Assembly (NCBI GenBank): GCA_044356725.1
Contig: JBIKVS010000002.1
Location: 19,264-83,263, forward strand
Length of the DNA: 64,000 nucleotides
Source of the DNA: Minisyncoccia bacterium
GTDB taxonomy: Bacteria > Patescibacteriota > Minisyncoccia > SW-4-49-11
Direction of reading: 5' to 3'
The notes under the pieces were generated by a model. It saw only the letters and a list, made by a program, of their open reading frames with translations. It made no database searches and was not told where the DNA came from. A program made the translations under genes and the position numbers. This document shows positions 3,321 to 64,000 of this stretch, piece by piece (position 1 is the stretch's first letter; every line of letters begins with the position of its first letter).

Positions 3321-3515
3321 ATTATGAATTATGAGTTGTTAATGATACTTATACAGGCTCATTATATTTTAGTCCTCCCTCCAAAGGGAGACAATATTTC
3401 AAGTTGCAAAATAATCCACCACCGGCACTTCGTGCCACCTCCTCCAAAGGAGGACAATATAATACAAAGTTCAGGCGACTAGTAGGTCGCCCCTCAACGA
3501 GGGGAATTTAATTCA
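3321..3515. repeat. Composite GC-rich palindromic repeat element, copy A. It is a member of a window-wide family.
   Basis: Contains gtcctccctccaaagggagacaa, ggcacttcgtgcc, cctcctccaaaggaggac, ggcgactagtaggtcgcc (3474-3491), and cccctcaacgaggggaat. It is preceded by an AT-rich attatgaattatgagttgtt segment. The same modules recur in copies B to J. Confidence 0.7.
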
Positions 3516-15443: not shown

Positions 15444-15658
15444 ATGAATTGTAGTTTGTGAATTGTCAATTATGAATGGTGAATGATGAATTGGTAGTTG
15501 TGCTTTTGTCTCCCTCCAACTACCTACGGCAGTTAAAAAGGGAGACGAAAATTAAGTATAGGCGACTGAAAGGTCGCACCTACTAAATTTAAGTATCGGT
15601 GAGAGCACCGACTCTACGGAATTCATAATTCACCACTCACAATTTATCATTAAAATTG
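15444..15658. repeat. Composite repeat element, copy B, with AT-rich inverted ends. It directly abuts the 3' end of tRNA-Arg.
   Basis: The left end atgaattgtagtttgtgaattgtcaattatgaatggtgaatgatgaatt and right end ggaattcataattcaccactcacaatttatcatt are inverted relative to each other. Internal modules are tgtctccctcc...aaagggagacg, ggcgactgaaaggtcgc (15561-15577), and atcggtgagagcaccgactctacgg. Confidence 0.7.
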
Positions 15659-26330: not shown

Positions 26331-26646
26331 TTAAAAAAATTATGAATTGTAGGTTGTGAATGGTAAATTGTGAGTTATGAATTATTAACTGTAGGGCTTT
26401 TGTAAAGAGATATTAGGAGGGGGCGACCTTTCAGTCGCCTGAATCCTCCTCCGTCACCTACGGTGCCACCTCCCCCAAGGGAGGACAGTTCTTATCTTGT
26501 CTCCCTTTGGAGGGCGACAGAGACGGAAACTCAAATCACAAAACACTCCACCCCGTCCAGCATAGCTGTCCACCCCTCAAGAGGGGAATTTTAATACAAA
26601 AGACCCTAAAATTCATAATTTACAATTCACAATTTATAATTAAAGC
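26331..26646. repeat. Composite repeat element, copy C. It is the largest copy, with long AT-rich terminal inverted repeats, and serves as the archetype.
   Basis: The left end ttatgaattgtaggttgtgaatggtaaattgtgagttatgaatt is the inverse of the right end aaattcataatttacaattcacaatttataatt. Internal modules are ggcgacctttcagtcgcc (26422-26439), cctcctccgtcacctacggtgccacctcc, cccccaagggagg, tctccctttggaggg, and cacccctcaagaggggaat. The right end abuts the stop of the pilin-like gene. Confidence 0.75.
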
Positions 26647-32740: not shown

Positions 32741-32960
32741 TTAATTATGAATGGTGGATAATTTAATTATGAATTGTAAGTTGTGAATTATGAATGGCGC
32801 TTCTGTCTCCCTTCGGAGGGAGTACCCGTAGGGGGAGGGAGGACTTCAGACAACACAAGATAACCCCCTCCTAAACTAAAGTATAGGAGGGGCTTAAGAA
32901 CAATGTCGGCGAGGGCGCCGACTCTACGAACTTACAATTTAGAATTCATAATTATATTAT
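32741..32960. repeat. Composite repeat element, copy D, with AT-rich inverted ends, in the divergent ruvA/prx promoter region
   Basis: Has aattatgaattgtaagttgtgaattatgaatgg and aacttacaatttagaattcataatt ends. Internal modules are ctgtctcccttcggagggagtacccgtagggggagggaggac and aacaatgtcggcgagggcgccgactctacgaa, the latter in inverted orientation relative to copies H and I. Confidence 0.7.
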
Positions 32961-36023: not shown

Positions 36024-36134
36024 AAATCGATTCCTAAGAACTGGAACACAAATACTATATCATAAAAAGTAGTTATATACAATTGTCTGTACTAGATGAT
36101 ATGATCGAAATATATAGAGTACTAAATAAGCAAT

Positions 36135-36285
36135 TGTCCTCCTTTGGAGGAGGTGGCACGAAGTGCCGGAGGAGGACTAAGGCTGATGTTGTTGTTATAA
36201 AGTTTATTCTAATATTTTAGTATTTCAAGTATAGTCCTCCCTCCCCCTACGGGTACTCCCTCCAAAGGGAGACAAAATAAAGTTC
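36135..36285. repeat. Composite repeat element, copy E. It carries GC-rich modules only, with no AT-rich ends.
   Basis: gtcctcctttggaggaggtggcacgaagtgccggaggaggac is a nested palindrome. It is followed by gtcctccctccccctacgggtactccctccaaagggagacaaaataaa, the same module as in copies H and I. Confidence 0.7.
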
Positions 36286-49956: not shown

Positions 49957-50088
49957 GTATGAATGGTGAGTTGTGAGTTCCGTAGGGGCGACCTTACAGT
50001 CGCCTGAGTCCTCCCTACATTAGAGTAATGTCGGCGAGTACATCGACTCTACAAAATTCATAATTTATAATTCACAATTTATAATTAT
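49957..50088. repeat. Composite repeat element, copy F, with AT-rich inverted ends
   Basis: Left end agtatgaatggtgagttgtgagtt. Internal modules are ggcgaccttacagtcgcc (49987-50004) and taatgtcggcgagtacatcgactctaca. The right end aaaattcataatttataattcacaatttataatt abuts the ileS stop codon. Confidence 0.7.
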
Positions 50089-58614: not shown

Positions 58615-59592
58615 TTATCTACAAAGTGTAGTTTTTGAATAAAAAAGCCCCTGCCAAAAGCAAGAGCTTGTAAAGTTATTCGCACGGTTGACTATATAGT
58701 CAATTAGAGCTAATAGTGGCTCTGATTGACCATTTTTGTTATATGGTTCCAGAGCTTGGTTTCCTTCCTCCATTAGAGATGTAACACGCCTCCTACACTC
58801 CGCTAAACCCAATAACTTTGGATAAGTAGATTTATCCGCTGTCAGGTCTTTACCCGCCATCTTACCGAAAACTTTAGCACTAGCGGTGACATCAAGTATA
58901 TCATCACTTATCTGAAAGCCCAGACAAACACACTTAGCATAGACTCGCAGAGCCTCTATCAAATCCTTATCTGCTCCACCGATTATAGCTCCACTGACTA
59001 CAGAAGCTCGTAATAAAGAGCCTGTCTTATGGAGATGTATGTATTCAAGGGTGTCTAAATCAACTTCTTTACCCTCAAACTCTAAACCTACTGCCTGACC
59101 ACCCATTAGACCAGAAGCACCAGAGGCAAGCGAGAGCTCGCCCACAACTGCAAGCAAACGCTCAGCTGGCACATCAGGACTCTGCAAGGCAATCTTCTCA
59201 AAAGCACGGACTAGCAGGGAGTTCCCTGCAAGAATAGCCATTGCCTCCCCATAAACTTTATGATTAGTCGGCCTCCGCCCTCGACGAAAATTACAATTGC
59301 CAAGAGGGGGTAGATCATCGTGAATAAGAGATGAAATGTGTATCATCTCTAGTGCCACCGATGTGGGCATAGCTTGGGTTACCGTACCCCCAGCTAACTC
59401 GCAAGCAGCTAGACACAGAATTGGCCTTAACCGCTTACCACCATTCAGAAGAGAATACCTCATTGACTCCTTAAGTTTATTTAGCCTATAAATATCCAGA
59501 CTCAATGCTTGATCAAGAGCAGCCTCAATCTGTAGACGCCTATTTTCAATATATTGAGCAAAATCAAACTTAGCAGAATTTTTACTAGCCAT
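58615..59592 (-). CDS. Polyprenyl diphosphate synthase (IspA/GGPPS family) with an atypical first Asp-rich motif
   Basis: GGKRLRPIL, IHDDLPPLGNCNFRRGRRPTNHKVYGEAMAILAG, and the second motif GFQISDDILD. The FARM lacks the usual third Asp. Confidence 0.8.
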   Translation of the reverse strand: MASKNSAKFDFAQYIENRRLQIEAALDQALSLDIYRLNKLKESMRYSLLNGGKRLRPILCLAACELAGGTVTQAMPTSVALEMIHISSLIHDDLPPLGNCNFRRGRRPTNHKVYGEAMAILAGNSLLVRAFEKIALQSPDVPAERLLAVVGELSLASGASGLMGGQAVGLEFEGKEVDLDTLEYIHLHKTGSLLRASVVSGAIIGGADKDLIEALRVYAKCVCLGFQISDDILDVTASAKVFGKMAGKDLTADKSTYPKLLGLAECRRRVTSLMEEGNQALEPYNKNGQSEPLLALIDYIVNRANNFTSSCFWQGLFYSKTTLCR

Positions 59593-59963: not shown

Positions 59964-62327
59964 ATGCCTCTTGTATCCAAATACGAAATTACCGAACGCG
60001 AAGCCTATTGGCGTGAATTTTGGGCGAAACAGAATATCTATGCCTTTGATGAGAATTCGGAGAAGCCTATTTTCTCCGTAGATACTCCTCCACCCTATGT
60101 CTCAGCAGATCACTTACATCCAGGACATATTATGAGCTATTCTCAAGCTGAATTTGTCGTACGATTCAAGCGAATGCAAGGTTATAATGTGTTTTATCCA
60201 ATGGGATTTGATAATAATGGACTGCCAACTGAAAGGCATGTAGAGAAAAAATATAAAATCAAGAATAAAGATGCCATTAGTCGCTCTGAATTTATCAAAT
60301 TATGTCTCGAAGAAACTCAAAAAGGAATCCAAACCTATCGCAATCTCTGGTCACTTTTAGGAGTTTCAGTTGATTGGTCTAAGACTTACTCCTCTATCAA
60401 TCCTCACTCCCAGAAAATTGCTCAGTGGTCATTTTTAGATTTATATAAAAAAGGCTTATTAACTCAAAGAGAAGAGCCAATAATGTGGGATATTAGCTTT
60501 CAATCGGCTCTAGCTCAGACTGATCTTGAAGACTCCGAGCAAGACTCTCACCTCAATGATATAATCTTCAAAGCCGAAGAATCTGGTGAAGACTTAATTA
60601 TAGCTACCACCAGACCCGAGTTAATCCCAGCAGCAGTGGCTTTGTTCTTCCACCCAGAAGATAGCCGATATCAGCATCTTATTGGTACTAAAGCTATCGC
60701 CCCGATTTCTGGACACACTGTGCCAATTTTGACAGACGAGAGCGTCGACAAAGATTTTGGAACAGGTTTGATGATGGTTTGTACTTGGGGAGATACTGAG
60801 GATATAGCCAAATGGAAAAAATATAATCTGGAGACTAGACTAATCTTCAATCAAAAAGGGATTTTGAATGACCTAGCAGGAGCTTATGCTGGAGGACATA
60901 TTAGTAAATTAAGAAAGACGATATTAGAAGATTTACAAACCCAAAACTTATTAGTCAAACAAACCCCCATCACCCACACCGTCCAAGTTTCTGAAAGGTC
61001 AGGTACTCCAATAGAATTTATCCTGACCAAACAATGGTTTATCAATGTAGTAGAGCATAAAGAAGCCCTATTAGAGCAAGGTAAAAAACTCAATTGGTAT
61101 CCAAAGAGAATGTTTTCTATCTACTCTGACTGGGTTAGCTCACTCAAATGGGACTGGTGCATCTCCAGACAAAGATATTATGGAGTTCCAATACCAGTCT
61201 GGTATCATAAACAAACTGGGGAAGTAATCCTACCTCAAGAAGATGAATTGCCAGTTGACCCAACCGAATATACCCCTAGAGGCTATAATGCTGAAGATTT
61301 AATCCCTGAGCACGATGTGCTAGACACTTGGATGACCTCCTCAATGTCGCCTGAAATTGGAGCCAAATTAGTAGCAGACACGGAGATTAGTGCTAAATTA
61401 TTCCCATCCAGCCTGCGACCTCAAGCCTTCGAGATAATCCGAACATGGCTATTCTATACAGTCACTAAAGCCTACTTTCATCATAATAGTCTACCCTTTA
61501 GTGATGTGATGATATCAGGACACGGACTAGACAATCAAGGACGGAAAATTAGCAAAAGACTAGGCAATTTCACCCCACCAGAGCAAACTATAGCAACCTA
61601 TGGAGCAGATGCTATGAGATATTGGGCTACAGGTACCACTCTGGGAGAGAATATCCGATACAATGAAGATGAAATCAAAAAAGGCAAGAAAACAGTCAAT
61701 AAACTATTCAATGTTGGTAAATTTTCTGAATTACATCTGCAGAATTTCACTCTACCCGCGCAAACACCTGAACTAGAATTAATCGATAAATGGATTTTAG
61801 CTGAATTAAATCAAACTATTAAGACCGCAACTGAGAGCTTCGAGCAATATGAATACTACAGAGCAAAAACCGCTGTGGATAGCCTATTCTGGAATAAACT
61901 TACCGATTATTATCTAGAATTAATCAAATACAGACTATATGATGAGACCCCAGAAGGCCAAAATTCCCGCCTAGCAGCTCAGTATACTCTATATATAGTA
62001 TTAGAACAGATACTCAAATTATATGCCCCAATTTTGCCATTTATAACTGAGGAGATATATCACGGACTATATGCTCAATCAGAAAATGAAAGTATTCATC
62101 AATCCAATTGGCCAAAGACAAATACAAATTGGCAACTCTCTAGTGACGAACACAATCTAATGACAGATATTCTAGCAGTCATCGAGTCCGTAAGAGCTTA
62201 TAAATCTCAGAATAGTATTTCTCTAGGAAAGGAAATTGAAACTTATACCTATACTTCTACTCAAGACTTAAGCCCATACGAAGACTTCCTAGCCAAGGCT
62301 CTCAGAGTTGGCAAGTTGGTGAAGTAG
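59964..62327 (+). CDS. valS: Valyl-tRNA synthetase, short form without a C-terminal coiled-coil
   Basis: HIGH region PPPYVSADHLHPGH. ATTRPELIPAAVALFFHPEDSRY matches ValRS TTRPETMLGDTAVAV.PED.RY. WCISRQRYYGVPIPVWY and the KMSKS-like GRKISKRLGN are also present. It is 787 aa. Confidence 0.9.
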   Translation: MPLVSKYEITEREAYWREFWAKQNIYAFDENSEKPIFSVDTPPPYVSADHLHPGHIMSYSQAEFVVRFKRMQGYNVFYPMGFDNNGLPTERHVEKKYKIKNKDAISRSEFIKLCLEETQKGIQTYRNLWSLLGVSVDWSKTYSSINPHSQKIAQWSFLDLYKKGLLTQREEPIMWDISFQSALAQTDLEDSEQDSHLNDIIFKAEESGEDLIIATTRPELIPAAVALFFHPEDSRYQHLIGTKAIAPISGHTVPILTDESVDKDFGTGLMMVCTWGDTEDIAKWKKYNLETRLIFNQKGILNDLAGAYAGGHISKLRKTILEDLQTQNLLVKQTPITHTVQVSERSGTPIEFILTKQWFINVVEHKEALLEQGKKLNWYPKRMFSIYSDWVSSLKWDWCISRQRYYGVPIPVWYHKQTGEVILPQEDELPVDPTEYTPRGYNAEDLIPEHDVLDTWMTSSMSPEIGAKLVADTEISAKLFPSSLRPQAFEIIRTWLFYTVTKAYFHHNSLPFSDVMISGHGLDNQGRKISKRLGNFTPPEQTIATYGADAMRYWATGTTLGENIRYNEDEIKKGKKTVNKLFNVGKFSELHLQNFTLPAQTPELELIDKWILAELNQTIKTATESFEQYEYYRAKTAVDSLFWNKLTDYYLELIKYRLYDETPEGQNSRLAAQYTLYIVLEQILKLYAPILPFITEEIYHGLYAQSENESIHQSNWPKTNTNWQLSSDEHNLMTDILAVIESVRAYKSQNSISLGKEIETYTYTSTQDLSPYEDFLAKALRVGKLVK

Positions 62328-62340
62328 CGATAATTATAAA

Positions 62341-62573
62341 TGTTGAGTTGTGAATTTCATAGCGGAGCCGTCCCTATGGGAGTTAAACGTTTATCCCTCC
62401 ATATCGTAGAGTCGGTGCCCTCGCCGACATTGTTCTAATGTAGGGTAGACCTTTCAGTAGCCTATGTCCTCCCTCCCCCTGCGGGTACTCCCTCCAAAGG
62501 GAGACAAAATAAAAACTATCCTCCCTTGGGGGAGGTGGCACCGTAGGTGACGGAGGAGGACTATTGTATAAAA
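62341..62573. repeat. Composite repeat element, copy H, upstream-flanking the tRNA pair. It is a near-identical direct repeat of copy I.
   Basis: cgtagagtcggtgccctcgccgacattgttcta ... gtagacctttcagtagcc ... gtcctccctccccctgcgggtactccctccaaagggagacaaaataaaaactatcctcccttgggggaggtggcaccgtaggtgacggaggaggact. It is about 95 percent identical to 62905-63063 over about 165 bp. Confidence 0.8.
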
Positions 62574-62661
62574 GTCATAACTAAAAATTTTTAAACGAAG
62601 AAAACACCGGTCATTGACCAGTGCTCATAGATTGAATTAAAGAGGGAAATCCCTAGTAAAA

Positions 62662-62732
62662 TCGAAGCGGCAGGATTTGAACCTACGACCCCCTGCATGT
62701 GCAGGTGCGCTACCAGACTGCGCTACGCCCCG
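62662..62732 (-). tRNA. tRNA-like gene with an atypical 4-nt anticodon loop (ACAT). It may be a tRNA-Met(CAT) variant or a pseudogene.
   Basis: The minus-strand sequence is CGGGGCG-TA-GCGC-AGTCTGGTA-GCGC-A-CCTGC-ACAT-GCAGG-GGGTC-GTAGG-TTCAAAT-CCTGC-CGCTTCG-A. The acceptor (with two G:U pairs), D-arm, variable loop, and T-arm are canonical. It is 71 nt instead of about 74, and the shortfall is entirely in the anticodon loop. Confidence 0.5.
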
Positions 62733-62741
62733 ATGGAGAAA

Positions 62742-62817
62742 CGGTGAGTGGTGGATTCGAACCCCTGAAACTTATCACGAATTGAGACAAGTAGCTCCCA
62801 AGAGCAACTACCCCACC
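62742..62817 (-). tRNA. tRNA-like gene with a canonical acceptor and TTCGAAT T-loop but non-canonical D and anticodon arms. The anticodon is unresolved.
   Basis: The minus-strand sequence is GGTGGGG-TAGTTGCTCTTGGGAGCTAC-TTGTCTCAATTCGTGATAAG-TTTC-AGGGG-TTCGAAT-CCACC-ACTCACC-G. The acceptor pairs 6/7. The D region folds as GTTGCTC-TTGG-GAGCTAC with a 4-nt loop. The anticodon region folds as ACTTGTC-(9 nt)-GATAAGT. It lies 9 nt from the previous tRNA-like gene. Confidence 0.4.
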
Positions 62818-62883
62818 ATAATCCGTATATTATTATACTTATATTTTCTTAATTGTCAAGAGTTGAGGCGGTACAATTATAGA

Positions 62884-63063
62884 TTATGAATTATTAATGA
62901 TAAATTCGTAGAGTCGGTGCCCTCGCCGACATTGTTCTAGTGTAGGGGCGACCTTTCAGTCGCCTGTGTCCTCCCTCCCCCTGCGGGGACTCCCTCCAAA
63001 GGGAGACAAAATAAAAACTGTCCTCCCTTGGGGGAGGTGGCACCGTAGGTGACGGAGGAGGAC
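62884..63063. repeat. Composite repeat element, copy I, downstream-flanking the tRNA pair
   Basis: cgtagagtcggtgccctcgccgacattgttctag ... ggcgacctttcagtcgcc (62947-62964) ... gtcctccctccccctgcggggactccctccaaagggagacaaaataaaaactgtcctcccttgggggaggtggcaccgtaggtgacggaggaggact. Confidence 0.8.
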
Positions 63064-63088
63064 TGAGCTAAATTTACCCTATCCCCAC

Positions 63089-64000
63089 CTACCTATACAA
63101 ATACTTCTGAAATTCTATGAATAAATCTCGAATAGACTCAACCCCACCCAAATTCTGTTGAGCCTCTGCCAGAGAATGATATTTATTCTGTAATAAAATA
63201 GCTAATCTATCCTGATCCAATTCCTCGAATCCAGATTGAATATATTTATCCAACACAAATTGCAAAAATTGCTTCTGAGACTCACTTAAATCATCTAAAA
63301 TATCCTGCTTGGATTGCAAAACTCTCATTTCCCTTGAAATTGGTTTATTCTCAGCATTAAAGACATATTCCAAAACATCAAACAAATCACTATTCTCCGC
63401 ATCCACTAATTTTTGTAAAGTTTTCAGCTTATCTTGACTAAACCCAGCTTGACCTAATTTTTCCAAAAGCTGTTTACGAGTAATTGGACTACCCCAAATA
63501 GCCCTTAATTCCTGCTCTGTGGTGAATAATTTTGGCAATTCCCCAAATAAATTATGCATAAATTCTTCCACTGAAACCGGTCTTCCTTGAGCATCCCAAA
63601 AAGAAGTCGAGACCATAGACTGAATTTCCCTAATTTTACCATCTCTTAATTTCACTTTAATCTTTTTATTCTCACCTACTATAGGAGGAATTGTAGCTCC
63701 AGTTGGAGGATATACTTTAGTCCCAGAATCTCCCACAGGACTTACAGACCCATCTTCTATAACTCCACCTTCCCACTTTGGATCCGCAAACAACCGATAA
63801 GCCTCCACAAAATCATAAATAGTAAAGAAATCCTTACCCTCAAAGACTCTCGTGCCCCTACCAATAATTTGTTTGAACTCAATCATAGAATTAATCGGTC
63901 GCATCAAGACAATATTCCTGACATTACGAGCATCCACCCCAGTAGATAATTTTTGAGAAGTAGTCAAAATAGTTGGGATAGTCTTCTCGTTATCCTGAAA
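63089..64000 (-). CDS. Type I restriction enzyme R subunit (HsdR)-like helicase, C-terminal about 300 aa. The N-terminus lies beyond the window end.
   Basis: The reading frame stays open to position 64000 (FQDNEKTIPTILTTSQKLSTGVDARNVRNIVLMRPINSMIEFKQIIGRGTRV). Helicase motif VI is QIIGRGTR, and the C-terminal helical domain is typical of Type I HsdR. A Type III Res subunit is the alternative. Confidence 0.55.
   Translation of the reverse strand, partial: FQDNEKTIPTILTTSQKLSTGVDARNVRNIVLMRPINSMIEFKQIIGRGTRVFEGKDFFTIYDFVEAYRLFADPKWEGGVIEDGSVSPVGDSGTKVYPPTGATIPPIVGENKKIKVKLRDGKIREIQSMVSTSFWDAQGRPVSVEEFMHNLFGELPKLFTTEQELRAIWGSPITRKQLLEKLGQAGFSQDKLKTLQKLVDAENSDLFDVLEYVFNAENKPISREMRVLQSKQDILDDLSESQKQFLQFVLDKYIQSGFEELDQDRLAILLQNKYHSLAEAQQNLGGVESIRDLFIEFQKYLYR

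What the first reader, a model, noticed from the sequence alone, without database searches (positions are those of the whole stretch)
62662..62732. tRNA-like gene whose anticodon arm is a 5-bp stem with a 4-nt loop (CCTGC-ACAT-GCAGG)
Every other tRNA element is canonical:
- a 7-bp acceptor with a discriminator
- a GCGC/GCGC D-stem with a 9-nt D-loop
- a 5-nt variable loop
- a GTAGG/CCTGC T-stem with a TTCAAAT loop

The anticodon loop, however, is 4 nt instead of 7, and the gene is 71 nt. The loop contains CAT, so it may derive from a Met or Ile (lysidine) tRNA by a 3-nt deletion, making it a pseudogene. Alternatively it may be a tRNA-like structural RNA that cannot decode. Because it lies between the duplicated repeat cassettes, its presence may be linked to the element rather than to translation.
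Basis: seen in the sequence. Interest (0 to 1): 0.5.

Follow-up and report, generated by a model that had tools for sequence, protein, structure and literature searches.

The report
Anticodon-less tRNA-Pro mimic gene, conserved
This is a real, conserved gene for a proline-tRNA look-alike whose codon-reading loop is replaced by a short hairpin cap, so it cannot decode; it sits in a small two-RNA operon in a group of tiny-genome Patescibacteria, and its job is unknown.

Summary
Window 62662-62732 (minus strand) scores as a tRNA (Rfam 50.6 bits) with every canonical part except the anticodon loop, which is CCTGC-ACAT-GCAGG, 4 nt.

Most of the interpretation does not hold.
- **Origin:** the body is tRNA-Pro-like, not Met/Ile. 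It has C1-G72, A73 and a GCGC D-stem with a 9-nt loop, and its best hits in all 5426 E. coli genomes and in phages are annotated tRNA-Pro. The "CAT" is chance: relatives carry TACG, TTCG, TTTG, TTAG or TAT there.
- **Not a lone pseudogene:** nine distinct sequences from related Paceibacteria (Patescibacteria/CPR) keep the cloverleaf and the capped stem. 98.9% of cells pair, and 10 of 21 pairs show compensatory changes, three of them in the anticodon stem.
- **Operon:** it is the second gene of a two-tRNA-like operon. The operon has a perfect TTGACA-16-TATAAT promoter, a variable first tRNA-like element and an intrinsic terminator, and it always lies convergent with valS.
- **Repeats:** the flanking 159-nt repeats are dispersed MITE-like repeats, absent from several relatives, so they are incidental.

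Best reading: an expressed, non-decoding tRNA-Pro mimic that works through its acceptor/T-arm half. The mechanism is inferred, not shown. I found no description of it in the literature searched.

The parts
62662..62732 (-). Element 2, the finding: a tRNA-Pro-like gene, 71 nt, whose anticodon arm is a 5-bp stem capped by the 4-nt loop ACAT. No CCA is encoded.
   Evidence: Detected by ARAGORN, Rfam tRNA at 50.6 bits and the family model R1 at 89.9 bits. The fold is, covariation across 9 homologues, and best hits are tRNA-Pro.
62692..62705 (-). Anticodon arm CCTGC-ACAT-GCAGG. The loop occupies 62697-62700.
   Evidence: Read directly. In homologues, three stem pairs show changes on both sides, and the loop sequence is not conserved.
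62742..62817 (-). Element 1: a degenerate tRNA-like RNA. It has acceptor GGTGGGG/ACTCACC, a TTCGAAT T-loop, an odd D-arm and a 6-bp stem with a 9-nt loop in place of the anticodon arm. It is co-transcribed upstream of element 2.
   Evidence: Read. It is homologous to L006 8759-8835. It is only a weak tRNA-like match (R1 8.2 bits, E 0.046) and Rfam tRNA does not hit it. A tRNA-like gene occupies this position in every relative.
62733..62741 (-). 9-nt spacer TTTCTCCAT between the two tRNA-like elements.
   Evidence: Relatives have 6-9 nt spacers such as GTTTAT or GTTTTTCAT.
62832..62859 (-). Sigma-70-type promoter, TTGACA-16 nt-TATAAT, matching 12 of 12 consensus positions. It is followed by the conserved ATATACGG start region.
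   Evidence: The same promoter and ATATACGG box are conserved in all 11 distinct operons.
62593..62626 (-). Intrinsic terminator of the operon: an 11-pair stem with a 3-nt loop, then a T-run.
   Evidence: Homologous terminators are present in L006, L029 and L042.
62643..62654 (-). Small trailer hairpin AGGG-ATTT-CCCT between element 2 and the terminator.
   Evidence: It is conserved as AGAGGGATTTGTCCCTC in L006, L029 and L042.
62404..62562 (+). 159-nt dispersed repeat, copy 1, lying between the valS stop codon and the operon terminator. It is not part of the RNA operon.
62906..63064 (+). 159-nt dispersed repeat, copy 2, upstream of the promoter. It is not part of the RNA operon.
59964..62327 (+). 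valS (787 aa, PRK13208-type valine-tRNA ligase). It is the conserved convergent neighbour used as the synteny anchor.
   Evidence: Synteny is shown.

Best explanation
The 71-nt sequence is a functional gene for a non-decoding tRNA mimic. It is a paralogue of tRNA-Pro in which the 7-nt anticodon loop has been replaced by a short hairpin cap.

**Gene organisation**
- It is the second gene of a dedicated two-gene tRNA-like operon: promoter, variable tRNA-like element 1, short spacer, element 2, terminator.
- This operon is conserved, convergent with valS, in a clade of Paceibacteria (Patescibacteria/CPR).

**Shown**
- The cloverleaf.
- The tRNA-Pro-type body.
- The missing anticodon loop.
- Conservation with compensatory base changes.
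- The conserved promoter and terminator.
- Independence from the flanking repeats.

**Inferred**
- The transcript is matured like a tRNA: RNase P at C1, 3' trimming and CCA addition. It keeps U8, A14, G15, G18G19, the T-loop, the acceptor stem and A73.
- It folds into the L-shape.
- It cannot pair with a codon, so it acts off the decoding site through its acceptor/T-arm 'top half' and elbow.
- The invariant C1-G72, G2-C71, G3 and A73 point to a partner that reads the tRNA-Pro acceptor end, with ProRS the first candidate.
- It would act either as a non-decoding aminoacyl carrier or as an uncharged binder or competitor, as mascRNA does for GlnRS.

**How sure I am**
- About 0.85 that it is a selected, non-decoding tRNA-Pro-derived RNA.
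- About 0.3 for the specific ProRS/acceptor-end mechanism.
- The confidence value given for this explanation (0.65) is a blend of the two.
For: **tRNA shape with a 4-nt loop.** Rfam tRNA scores 50.6 bits with 4 nt in place of 7. ARAGORN calls it 'tRNA-???'. The minimum-free-energy fold is this cloverleaf.

**tRNA-Pro origin.** All best hits in 5426 of 5426 E. coli genomes, and the listed phage hits, are annotated tRNA-Pro. The hits span 74-75 nt against the 71-nt query. The acceptor-end and core Pro determinants G72, A73 and G15-C48 listed in PMC9976931 are present. G35, G36 and G37 are absent.

**Conservation.** There are nine distinct homologues, from window, L042, L009, L028, L006/L029, L001, L008, L056 and L005/L010. 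They come from independent assemblies (JGI, ENA, Logan, NCBI MAGs).

**Covariation on the MAFFT alignment A1.**
- 98.9% of cells are paired, against 41-52% when the partner column is slid.
- 10 of 21 pairs have changes on both sides.
- That includes 3 of 5 anticodon-stem pairs and 3 of 5 T-stem pairs.
- 0 of 500 shuffles reach these values.

**Loop.** Loop length is kept (4 nt, once 3 nt plus an extra pair) while loop sequence varies. Five of nine are C(UNCG)G-type caps.

**Invariant positions.** C1, G2, G3, G4, the two 3'-terminal pairing bases and A73 never vary.

**Expression signals.** The promoter matches 12 of 12 consensus positions and an intrinsic terminator follows. The promoter and the ATATACGG box are conserved in all operons.

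**Synteny.** The position next to valS is the same in every relative.

**Deeper relatives.** In loci with 64-65% ValRS identity there is still a promoter-driven small RNA next to valS. It has the CGGGRCG...CGYCCCG-A-CCA acceptor and a T-arm, but a different core (L062, L063).

**Other lineages.** Comparable anticodon-less Pro-like genes occur in other Patescibacteria and elsewhere (L013, L025, L016, L041, L046, L064).
Against: - No expression, processing or charging data are available.
- The tRNA complement of the genome could not be inventoried, so the existence of a canonical tRNA-Pro elsewhere is only inferred. It rests on normal Pro usage and on the report that Patescibacteria genomes mainly lacked tRNA-Asn and tRNA-Asp (PMC13011429).
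- Bacterial ProRS depends strongly on G35 and G36, which are missing, so prolylation may be poor or absent.
- No partner protein is encoded next to the operon. Neighbours are valS, a carotenoid gene, NAD synthase or restriction genes, depending on the genome.
- The window's copy looks slightly weaker than its relatives.
  - Its loop is not UNCG.
  - Its acceptor stem has two G-U pairs.
  - Its element 1 has mismatches.
- The nine sequences are related, so the shuffle control overstates significance. Gene conversion from a canonical tRNA-Pro gene could preserve part of the body without selection on this copy.
Confidence: 0.65

Rival explanations
1. It is a decaying tRNA-Pro pseudogene, a duplicate that lost its anticodon loop. 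The conservation seen would reflect recent common ancestry, hitch-hiking on the promoter of element 1, or gene conversion from the functional tRNA-Pro gene, not a function of its own.
For: - The window copy has a non-UNCG loop and two G-U pairs in the acceptor stem. Its partner, element 1, is degenerate.
- It sits in a variable region with MITE-like repeats and a truncated restriction gene.
- In L046 an anticodon-less copy lies beside a canonical tRNA-Pro(GGG) that is almost identical outside the anticodon arm, as expected for a duplicate.
- There are no expression data.
Against: - The capped anticodon stem itself shows three pairs with compensatory changes and keeps its length across nine sequences.
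- Those genomes differ in valS by 13-25% at the nucleotide level.
- Gene conversion from a canonical gene would restore the 7-nt loop.
- The consensus promoter, spacer and terminator are conserved.
- Deeper relatives still keep the acceptor and T-arm although the core has changed.
Confidence: 0.12
2. It is a decoy or immunity RNA in tRNA-targeted conflict with phages, toxins or anticodon nucleases. A nuclease-resistant, anticodon-less tRNA body, paired with a fast-changing partner, would soak up or sense factors that attack tRNAs.
For: - Element 1 is hypervariable in identity and in its anticodon arm. Element-1 types, element-2 types and trailer types are combined in shuffled fashion among close relatives: window A-1, L006 A-4, L029 B-4, L042 B-1, L028 C-1, L008 C-2. 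This pattern is typical of loci under diversifying selection.
- Restriction-modification genes are inserted right beside the operon in some genomes: an MmeI-type gene in L001 and a type I R fragment in the window.
- A similar promoter-driven Pro-like RNA with a 4-nt loop lies on a contig classed as viral (L064).
Against: - In the simplest loci (L010, L008) no defence gene is nearby.
- No tRNA-targeting toxin was found next to it.
- L064 carries NAD synthase, a methyltransferase and a sugar dehydrogenase, and is not clearly viral.
- The mosaic pattern can also arise from ordinary recombination in populations.
Confidence: 0.15
3. It is cargo, or an attachment site, of a mobile element defined by the flanking 159-nt repeats.
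For: - Two 96%-identical direct copies bracket the operon.
- Variable genes are inserted at this spot in different genomes.
- tRNA genes are classic integration sites (general knowledge).
Against: - The operon occupies the same place, immediately convergent with valS, in L005 and L010. No copy of the repeat was found anywhere in those loci.
- The repeat has eight further, partial matches elsewhere in the window and turns up at other places in relatives.
- No integrase or transposase was seen in the ORF lists and called genes of the flanks.
- The tRNA-like 3' end is not duplicated. The T-loop motif occurs only twice per locus.
Confidence: 0.04
4. It is a Met or Ile(CAT) tRNA that lost 3 nt of its anticodon loop.
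For: The loop ACAT contains CAT.
Against: - The body is tRNA-Pro-like.
- Homologues have TACG, TTCG, TTTG, TTAG or TAT at this place.
- C1-G72 with A73 is the bacterial tRNA-Pro signature (PMC9976931).
Confidence: 0.02
5. It is an assembly or sequencing artefact of a normal tRNA-Pro gene.
For: Most metagenome hits to the short-arm pattern are normal tRNA-Pro genes with 1-3 nt dropped or masked. They still show NGG anticodons.
Against: The same short arm, without any NGG anticodon, recurs in at least 11 independent assemblies from four sources. These show compensatory changes.
Confidence: 0.01

Closest known systems
Canonical bacterial tRNA-Pro
   Same: - C1-G72 first pair and A73 discriminator.
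- G15 and C48.
- GCGC D-stem with a 9-nt D-loop.
- 5-nt variable loop.
- TTCAAAT T-loop.
- Best sequence hits are annotated tRNA-Pro.
   Different: - It has no 7-nt anticodon loop, no U33 and no G35, G36 or G37, so it cannot decode and lacks the anticodon determinants for ProRS.
- It has its own two-gene operon with a second abnormal tRNA-like RNA.
mascRNA (mammalian MALAT1-derived tRNA-like small RNA)
   Same: - It is a near-perfect cloverleaf without a conserved anticodon loop.
- It is matured by tRNA enzymes and is not a decoder.
- It carries identity features of one tRNA family and binds an aminoacyl-tRNA synthetase without being charged (as summarised in PMC9976931).
   Different: - mascRNA is eukaryotic and is cut out of a long non-coding RNA.
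- There is no sequence relationship.
- Whether the bacterial RNA is charged, or binds ProRS, is untested.
tRNA-like domain of tmRNA
   Same: It is a non-decoding tRNA mimic that keeps the acceptor stem, T-arm and acceptor-end identity while lacking an anticodon (PMC3985003 abstract).
   Different: - This RNA has no mRNA-like part and no pseudoknots.
- G3-U70 is not conserved: it occurs in 1 of 9 sequences.
- ARAGORN finds no tmRNA here.
- It keeps full D and anticodon stems.
Bacterial Y RNA (YrlA) tRNA-like module
   Same: It is a bacterial non-coding RNA that mimics the tRNA elbow (PMC4201824 title and abstract).
   Different: - In YrlA the tRNA-like part is embedded in a Ro60-binding RNA with closed ends.
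- Here the acceptor ends are free.
- There is no Rfam match.
- No Ro60 gene was seen nearby.
Viral tRNA-like structures, e.g. BMV TLS-Tyr
   Same: [quoted passage not shown] This shows that a 4-nt loop does not exclude charging.
   Different: - It is the 3' end of a plant virus genome.
- It has a pseudoknotted acceptor.
- It is unrelated in sequence and context.
Non-proteinogenic or irregular bacterial tRNAs (Staphylococcus cell-wall tRNA-Gly; irregular allo-tRNA-like polycistrons)
   Same: - They are extra tRNA genes kept for uses other than normal decoding, or of unknown use.
- Polycistrons of irregular tRNA-like sequences have been reported from soil metatranscriptomes (PMC7609411). The Staphylococcus example is from my own knowledge.
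   Different: Those still have 7-nt anticodon loops or different (8/4) architectures. None is described as a tRNA-Pro body with a tetraloop cap.

Membership tests
tRNA (Rfam RF00005) as a structural family | Cloverleaf with a 7-bp acceptor, D-arm, T-arm with a TTCRAnY loop, and a score above the gathering threshold | tested here: met
   50.6 bits against a gathering score of 29.
Decoding (canonical) tRNA | 5-bp anticodon stem with a 7-nt loop containing U33 and a 3-nt anticodon | tested here: not met
   The arm is 14 nt and the loop 4 nt. ARAGORN gives a 2-base 'anticodon'. The same holds in all nine homologues.
tRNA-Pro (bacterial type) | C1-G72, A73 and G15-C48 acceptor and core determinants | tested here: met
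   C1, G72 and A73 are invariant in nine sequences, and G15 is invariant. The determinants are those listed in PMC9976931. Best hits are tRNA-Pro.
tRNA-Pro (bacterial type) | Anticodon determinants G35 and G36 (and G37) | tested here: not met
   The loop is ACAT in the window and TACG, TTCG, TTTG, TTAG or TAT in relatives.
tRNA-Pro (bacterial type) | Aminoacylation with proline by ProRS | not testable with these tools
   This needs an in vitro charging assay or charge-sensitive sequencing.
tRNA-Met / tRNA-Ile2 (CAT) | Body most similar to Met or Ile tRNAs, with a CAT anticodon conserved in homologues | tested here: not met
   Best hits are tRNA-Pro. CAT is absent from all homologues.
tRNA pseudogene | No selective constraint: no compensatory changes, no conserved expression signals, patchy presence | tested here: not met
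   10 of 21 pairs show double changes and 98.9% of cells pair. The promoter and terminator are conserved. The position is syntenic in all relatives with 84-91% ValRS identity that were examined and whose locus reaches the site.
tmRNA | tRNA-like domain with G3-U70 plus a tag-peptide reading frame | tested here: not met
   ARAGORN reports no tmRNA. G3-U70 occurs in 1 of 9 sequences. A 71-nt RNA has no room for a tag frame.
YrlA / bacterial Y RNA | Rfam model match and an rsr (Ro60) neighbour | tested here: not met
   No match even at E up to 10.
Cargo of the flanking repeat element | The operon moves with the repeats, and repeats flank it in relatives | tested here: not met
   In relatives L005 and L010 the operon is at the same site and no copy of the repeat is found in the locus. 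The repeat is dispersed elsewhere in the window.

The most novel reading that the evidence does not exclude
Patescibacteria keep a dedicated, recombining two-gene cassette of non-decoding tRNA mimics: a hypervariable tRNA-like RNA plus an anticodon-less tRNA-Pro body.

The mature, CCA-tailed products would work off the decoding site. They would act either as aminoacyl carriers for a ribosome-independent reaction or as decoys or sensors in conflicts that target tRNAs. That would be a bacterial counterpart of mascRNA-type tRNA mimicry, and it has not been described in the literature I could search.
Probability: 0.3. Interest if true: 0.85.

Novelty: new variant of a known kind. Interest (0 to 1): 0.62.

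Why it matters
Gene finders label such sequences 'tRNA-???' or pseudogenes, and they are then ignored. Here a tRNA-Pro body that cannot read any codon is kept under selection, with its own strong promoter, in organisms whose genomes are otherwise stripped down.

That implies a use for the tRNA shape outside decoding. Possible uses are:
- a synthetase or other tRNA-binding protein being titrated or stabilised;
- an amino acid being carried to a non-ribosomal acceptor;
- tRNA-directed attack being deflected.

It gives a concrete, small, easily synthesised RNA with which to test these ideas in Patescibacteria, where almost no RNA biology is known. It also gives a covariance model for finding more of them.

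Tried and rejected
**RNA family searches.** Rfam at gathering threshold on the whole window, and at E up to 10 on 62300-63100, gave only tRNA for the finding. There were also weak sub-threshold whalefall-1 hits inside the repeats. Rfam on the distant relatives L062 and L063 gave nothing beyond tRNA.

**Functional link to valS.** The ValRS is the ordinary PRK13208-type enzyme of Patescibacteria, not an extra paralogue. The loop's 'AC' is not conserved. I therefore dropped my early idea that A35-C36 of a tRNA-Val had been kept.

**Ala identity through G3-U70.** It is present in the window copy only, 1 of 9 sequences, so I rejected it as a family feature.

**Adjacent partner protein.** A weakly conserved 87-133 aa protein lies upstream in four loci but is absent in L010. 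Otherwise the neighbours vary. Pfam scans of 27 window proteins showed housekeeping genes and no tRNA-using transferase.

**Pattern scans.** The short-arm Pro pattern was scanned against three collections.
- Genome scan: 17 loci, of which 7 are Patescibacteria, all with non-Pro loops except possibly L024.
- Metagenome scan: 32 loci. Most are ordinary tRNA-Pro genes with sequencing-error deletions or masked bases. Only L029, L042 and L056 belong to the family, and L041 and L046 are separate cases.
- Viral scan: 1 locus (L064). Its genes do not look clearly viral.

**Literature.** Five searches found no description of anticodon-less tRNA genes in Patescibacteria. The paper on Patescibacteria tRNA introns (PMC13011429) does not mention them.

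**Not possible.** A full tRNA inventory of the genome could not be made.
Full report
**1. The observation**

The feature is on the minus strand. ARAGORN reports 62661-62733(-) as 'tRNA-???' with a two-base 'anticodon (ca)'. The Rfam tRNA model matches 62662-62732(-) over its full length at 50.6 bits (gathering score 29; E 7e-8 for the 64-kb window). It places 4 nt where the model has the 7-nt loop.

The minimum-free-energy fold of the 71 nt is this cloverleaf with a 5-bp/4-nt anticodon hairpin (-28.5 kcal/mol, 68% of the ensemble). The arm is 14 nt, so no standard fold of 5 bp plus 7 nt is possible.

**2. What the body is**

The first pair is C1-G72 and the discriminator is A73. The D-arm is GCGC with a 9-nt loop, G15 and C48 are present, and the T-loop is TTCAAAT. 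This is the look of bacterial tRNA-Pro.

As an unbiased test I searched the 71 nt against annotated collections.
- In all 5426 E. coli genomes the match lies on a gene annotated tRNA-Pro.
- Nearly all of the best phage matches listed are annotated tRNA-Pro, and they span 74-75 nt against the 71-nt query.

A review of tRNA identity lists G72, A73, G35, G36, G37 and the G15-C48 pair as Pro determinants in E. coli (PMC9976931). The acceptor and core determinants are present here and the anticodon ones are gone. The Met/Ile reading rests only on the letters CAT in the loop.

**3. It is one gene of a small operon**

Reading the minus strand gives, in order:
- a TTGACA-16-TATAAT promoter at 62859-62832, matching 12 of 12 consensus positions;
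- a short leader;
- a first tRNA-like element at 62817-62742;
- a 9-nt spacer;
- the finding at 62732-62662;
- a small hairpin;
- an intrinsic terminator at 62626-62593.

Element 1 has an acceptor stem, GGTGGGG/ACTCACC, and a TTCGAAT T-loop. Its D-arm is odd and it has a 6-bp stem with a 9-nt loop where the anticodon arm should be. Rfam's tRNA model does not reach it and my family model gives it only 8 bits.

**4. Organism and synteny**

The upstream gene is valS, a PRK13208-type valine-tRNA ligase. Outside its own clade its nearest relatives are Patescibacteria enzymes at 55-57% identity. The window has 34.6% G+C and carries ordinary housekeeping genes: SerRS, IleRS, a DNA polymerase III subunit and transketolase.

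Contigs encoding ValRS proteins 84-91% identical share the gene order around valS. A pattern scan of one genome per species hit MAGs named Candidatus Paceibacteria, Paceibacterota or Parcubacteria (L017, L026, L028). L026 carries an operon identical to that of L001. So this valS is the normal one for the lineage and not a special partner of the RNA.

**5. The homologues**

The same operon is present in every such locus that extends far enough, always convergent with valS. These are L001, L005, L006, L008, L009 and L010, plus L028, L029, L042 and L056 from the scans. There are 11 distinct operons and 9 distinct element-2 sequences.

The anticodon arms are:

| Locus | Anticodon arm |
|---|---|
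| window | CCTGC-ACAT-GCAGG |
| L042, L028 | CCTGC-TACG-GCAGG |
| L009 | TCTGC-TACG-GCAGG |
| L008 | CTTGC-TTCG-GCAGG |
| L001 | CTTGC-TTTG-GCAAG |
| L056 | TTTGC-TTAG-GCAAA |
| L005, L010 | GTTGC-TTCG-GCAAA |
| L006, L029 | TCTGTC-TAT-GACAGG |

The loop is short everywhere and its sequence is free. Five of the nine distinct sequences are C(UNCG)G-type caps, which are known to be very stable (general knowledge).

On the MAFFT alignment A1 the cloverleaf is 98.9% paired. Ten of 21 pairs show changes on both sides, three of them in the anticodon stem and three in the T-stem. No shuffle of 500 reaches these values, and sliding the partner column drops pairing to 41-52%.

There is a caveat. The sequences are related, so the shuffle count is not a probability. 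The slid control and the number of double changes are the stronger evidence.

C1, G2, G3, G4, the last two pairing bases and A73 never vary. The promoter, including an ATATACGG box after the -10 hexamer, is conserved in all operons. This is not how a neutral pseudogene behaves.

**6. Deeper and wider**

Two loci have ValRS only 64-65% identical.
- L062 has two promoter-driven RNAs next to valS. Both have CGGGRCG...CGYCCCG-A-CCA ends and a T-arm. One has an abnormal anticodon arm and the other has about 100 nt in place of the D and anticodon arms.
- L063 has a 79-nt RNA of the same kind with a re-built core.
- L061 has none.

So the Pro-type acceptor end and T-arm outlast the rest of the molecule.

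Separate cases of Pro-like bodies with non-decoding arms turned up elsewhere.
- Other Patescibacteria: L013 and L025 clearly, L014 and L024 less clearly. Several are paired with a second abnormal tRNA-like gene. L025 lies right after a stretch I read as the end of a 5S rRNA gene, which I did not confirm with a model.
- A MAG labelled Gammaproteobacteria (L016).
- Two metagenome contigs (L041, L046).
- A contig classed as viral (L064).

In L046 the anticodon-less copy sits next to a canonical tRNA-Pro(GGG). The two are nearly identical outside the anticodon arm, which shows how such genes arise.

Most other hits of the pattern scans are ordinary tRNA-Pro genes with dropped or masked bases. They still show NGG anticodons.

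**7. The repeats**

The 159-nt direct repeat that brackets the operon has eight further, partial matches elsewhere in the window. It also appears at other positions in relatives. In L005 and L010 the operon abuts valS and no copy of the repeat was found anywhere in the locus. No integrase or transposase was seen in the ORF lists and called genes of the flanks. The T-loop motif occurs only twice per locus.

The region is, however, a place where foreign genes land. L001 has an MmeI-type restriction-modification gene between valS and the operon. The window has a truncated type I R gene beyond the promoter.

**8. An unexpected pattern**

The parts of the operon are shuffled among close relatives. 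Window and L006 share the element-1 type but differ in element 2. L042 and L029 share another element-1 type and again differ in element 2. L008 and L028 do the same.

| Locus | valS nt identity to window | Element-2 identity to window |
|---|---|---|
| L006 | 86.8% | 77.8% |
| L009 | 78.3% | 91.7% |

This indicates recombination or cassette exchange at the locus. Element 1 ranges from near-normal tRNA shapes with Val-, Lys- or Ala-like 7-nt loops to forms with 5- to 17-nt loops or extended stems.

**9. How it most likely works**

*Shown:*
- a structurally constrained, tRNA-Pro-derived RNA gene without an anticodon loop;
- a consensus promoter and a terminator;
- conservation across a clade.

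*Inferred from what is known of tRNA maturation:*
- The acceptor/T-arm stack, the elbow nucleotides and A73 are intact.
- So RNase P, 3' trimming and the CCA-adding enzyme should process it into an L-shaped, CCA-tailed RNA.
- It cannot pair with mRNA.

The parts that never change (the Pro-type acceptor end) and the parts that outlast everything else in distant relatives (acceptor plus T-arm) both point one way. They suggest a partner that reads the acceptor end, and ProRS is the obvious candidate.

Two versions are possible.
- It is charged and serves as an amino-acid carrier that stays out of decoding.
- It binds without being charged and modulates its partner, as mascRNA does with GlnRS (PMC9976931).

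The loss of G35 and G36 argues against efficient prolylation by a bacterial-type ProRS. However, BMV TLS-Tyr shows that a 4-nt pseudo-anticodon loop does not by itself prevent charging. I cannot decide between these versions with the tools available.

A decoy role in tRNA-targeted conflict is a serious alternative, because of the shuffling and the neighbouring restriction genes. No toxin or defence gene is consistently nearby.

**10. Novelty**

Rfam has no family for it other than tRNA. Five full-text searches found no description of such genes. A recent survey of Patescibacteria tRNA genes deals with introns and does not mention them. The library does not cover all journals, so prior description cannot be excluded.

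I rate it a new variant of a known kind, namely tRNA mimics or tRNA-like small RNAs. It is not categorically new.

**11. Verdict**

'Structural RNA that cannot decode' is right. 'Met/Ile origin', 'pseudogene' and 'linked to the repeats' are not.
- Interest is 0.62.

Noticed in passing
window 62742-62817 (-): A second, degenerate tRNA-like element lies directly upstream of the finding in the same transcription unit. It is missed by ARAGORN and by Rfam. Its counterpart in relatives is a different tRNA-like gene in almost every genome, with Val-, Lys- or Ala-like 7-nt loops, 5- to 17-nt loops or extended stems.
   Followed up: partly
window 62593-62859 versus L001, L005, L006, L008, L009, L010, L028, L029, L042, L056: Element-1 type, element-2 type and trailer type are combined in shuffled fashion among close relatives. 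Element-2 similarity does not follow valS similarity: L006 has 86.8% valS but 77.8% element-2 identity, while L009 has 78.3% and 91.7%. This suggests recombination or cassette exchange at the locus.
   Followed up: partly
window 62404-62562 and 62906-63064; partial copies at about 26444-26514, 32801-32929, 36117-36281, 50013-50052, 15558-15618 and 3372-3394: This is a modular, dispersed intergenic repeat that looks like a MITE. It contains small G+C-rich hairpins followed by T-runs. Rfam whalefall-1 gives weak sub-threshold matches inside it (23-25 bits against a gathering score of 37). Related copies occur in relatives' loci.
   Followed up: partly
window 63089-63967 (-); L001 8428-11838: The window holds only the C-terminal 292 aa of an EcoAI-type type I restriction R subunit, as a closed ORF with an in-frame stop just upstream, so the gene is probably disrupted. 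In L001 an MmeI-type restriction-modification gene is inserted between valS and the RNA operon. The spot seems to collect restriction genes.
   Followed up: no
window 58615-59592 (-); relatives L001, L005, L006, L008, L009, L010: The window has a CrtE/FPP-synthase-like polyprenyl synthase between the GST-like gene and valS, which the relatives lack at that position. In the relatives a carotenoid gene set lies just beyond the RNA operon: PF04240 Caroten_synth, a UbiA prenyltransferase and an amine-oxidase/CrtI-like gene. Carotenoid genes in Patescibacteria seemed worth a note.
   Followed up: no
L062 8592-8670 and 8765-8900 (-); L063 8454-8532 (-): Next to valS in more distant relatives there are promoter-driven small RNAs with the same Pro-type acceptor stem, A73 and an encoded CCA, plus a T-arm. 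Their cores are rebuilt or greatly enlarged. No Rfam family matches beyond tRNA for one of them.
   Followed up: partly
L025 832-1014 (+); L013 4929-5094 (-); L016 7616-7775 (+); L046 45-266 (+): Other lineages carry pairs of tRNA-like genes with non-decoding anticodon arms.
- L025 (Saccharibacteria): two with 5-nt loops, right after what looks like the end of a 5S rRNA gene (read by eye, not confirmed with a model).
- L013 (a Paceibacterota MAG): arms CAAGCCC-TTCG-GGCTTG and CGTC-AAT-GACG.
- L016 (a MAG labelled Gammaproteobacteria): 7-bp/3-nt and 6-bp/3-nt arms.
- L046 (a high-G+C contig): an anticodon-less copy next to a canonical tRNA-Pro(GGG).

   Followed up: partly
L064 4590-4663 (-): A contig classed as viral (IMGVR_UViG_3300044641_004024) carries a promoter-driven tRNA-Pro-like gene with a TTCCG-TGGG-CGGAA arm (4-nt loop). 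Its neighbours are NAD synthase, a methyltransferase, a sugar dehydrogenase and a Phd-like antitoxin, so the contig may not be viral.
   Followed up: partly
L001 13506-13898, L005 10582-10983, L008 3276-3587, L009 10616-10879 (all -): A weakly conserved small protein of 87-133 aa with no Pfam family lies between the carotenoid gene and the RNA operon in four relatives. It is absent in L010.
   Followed up: partly
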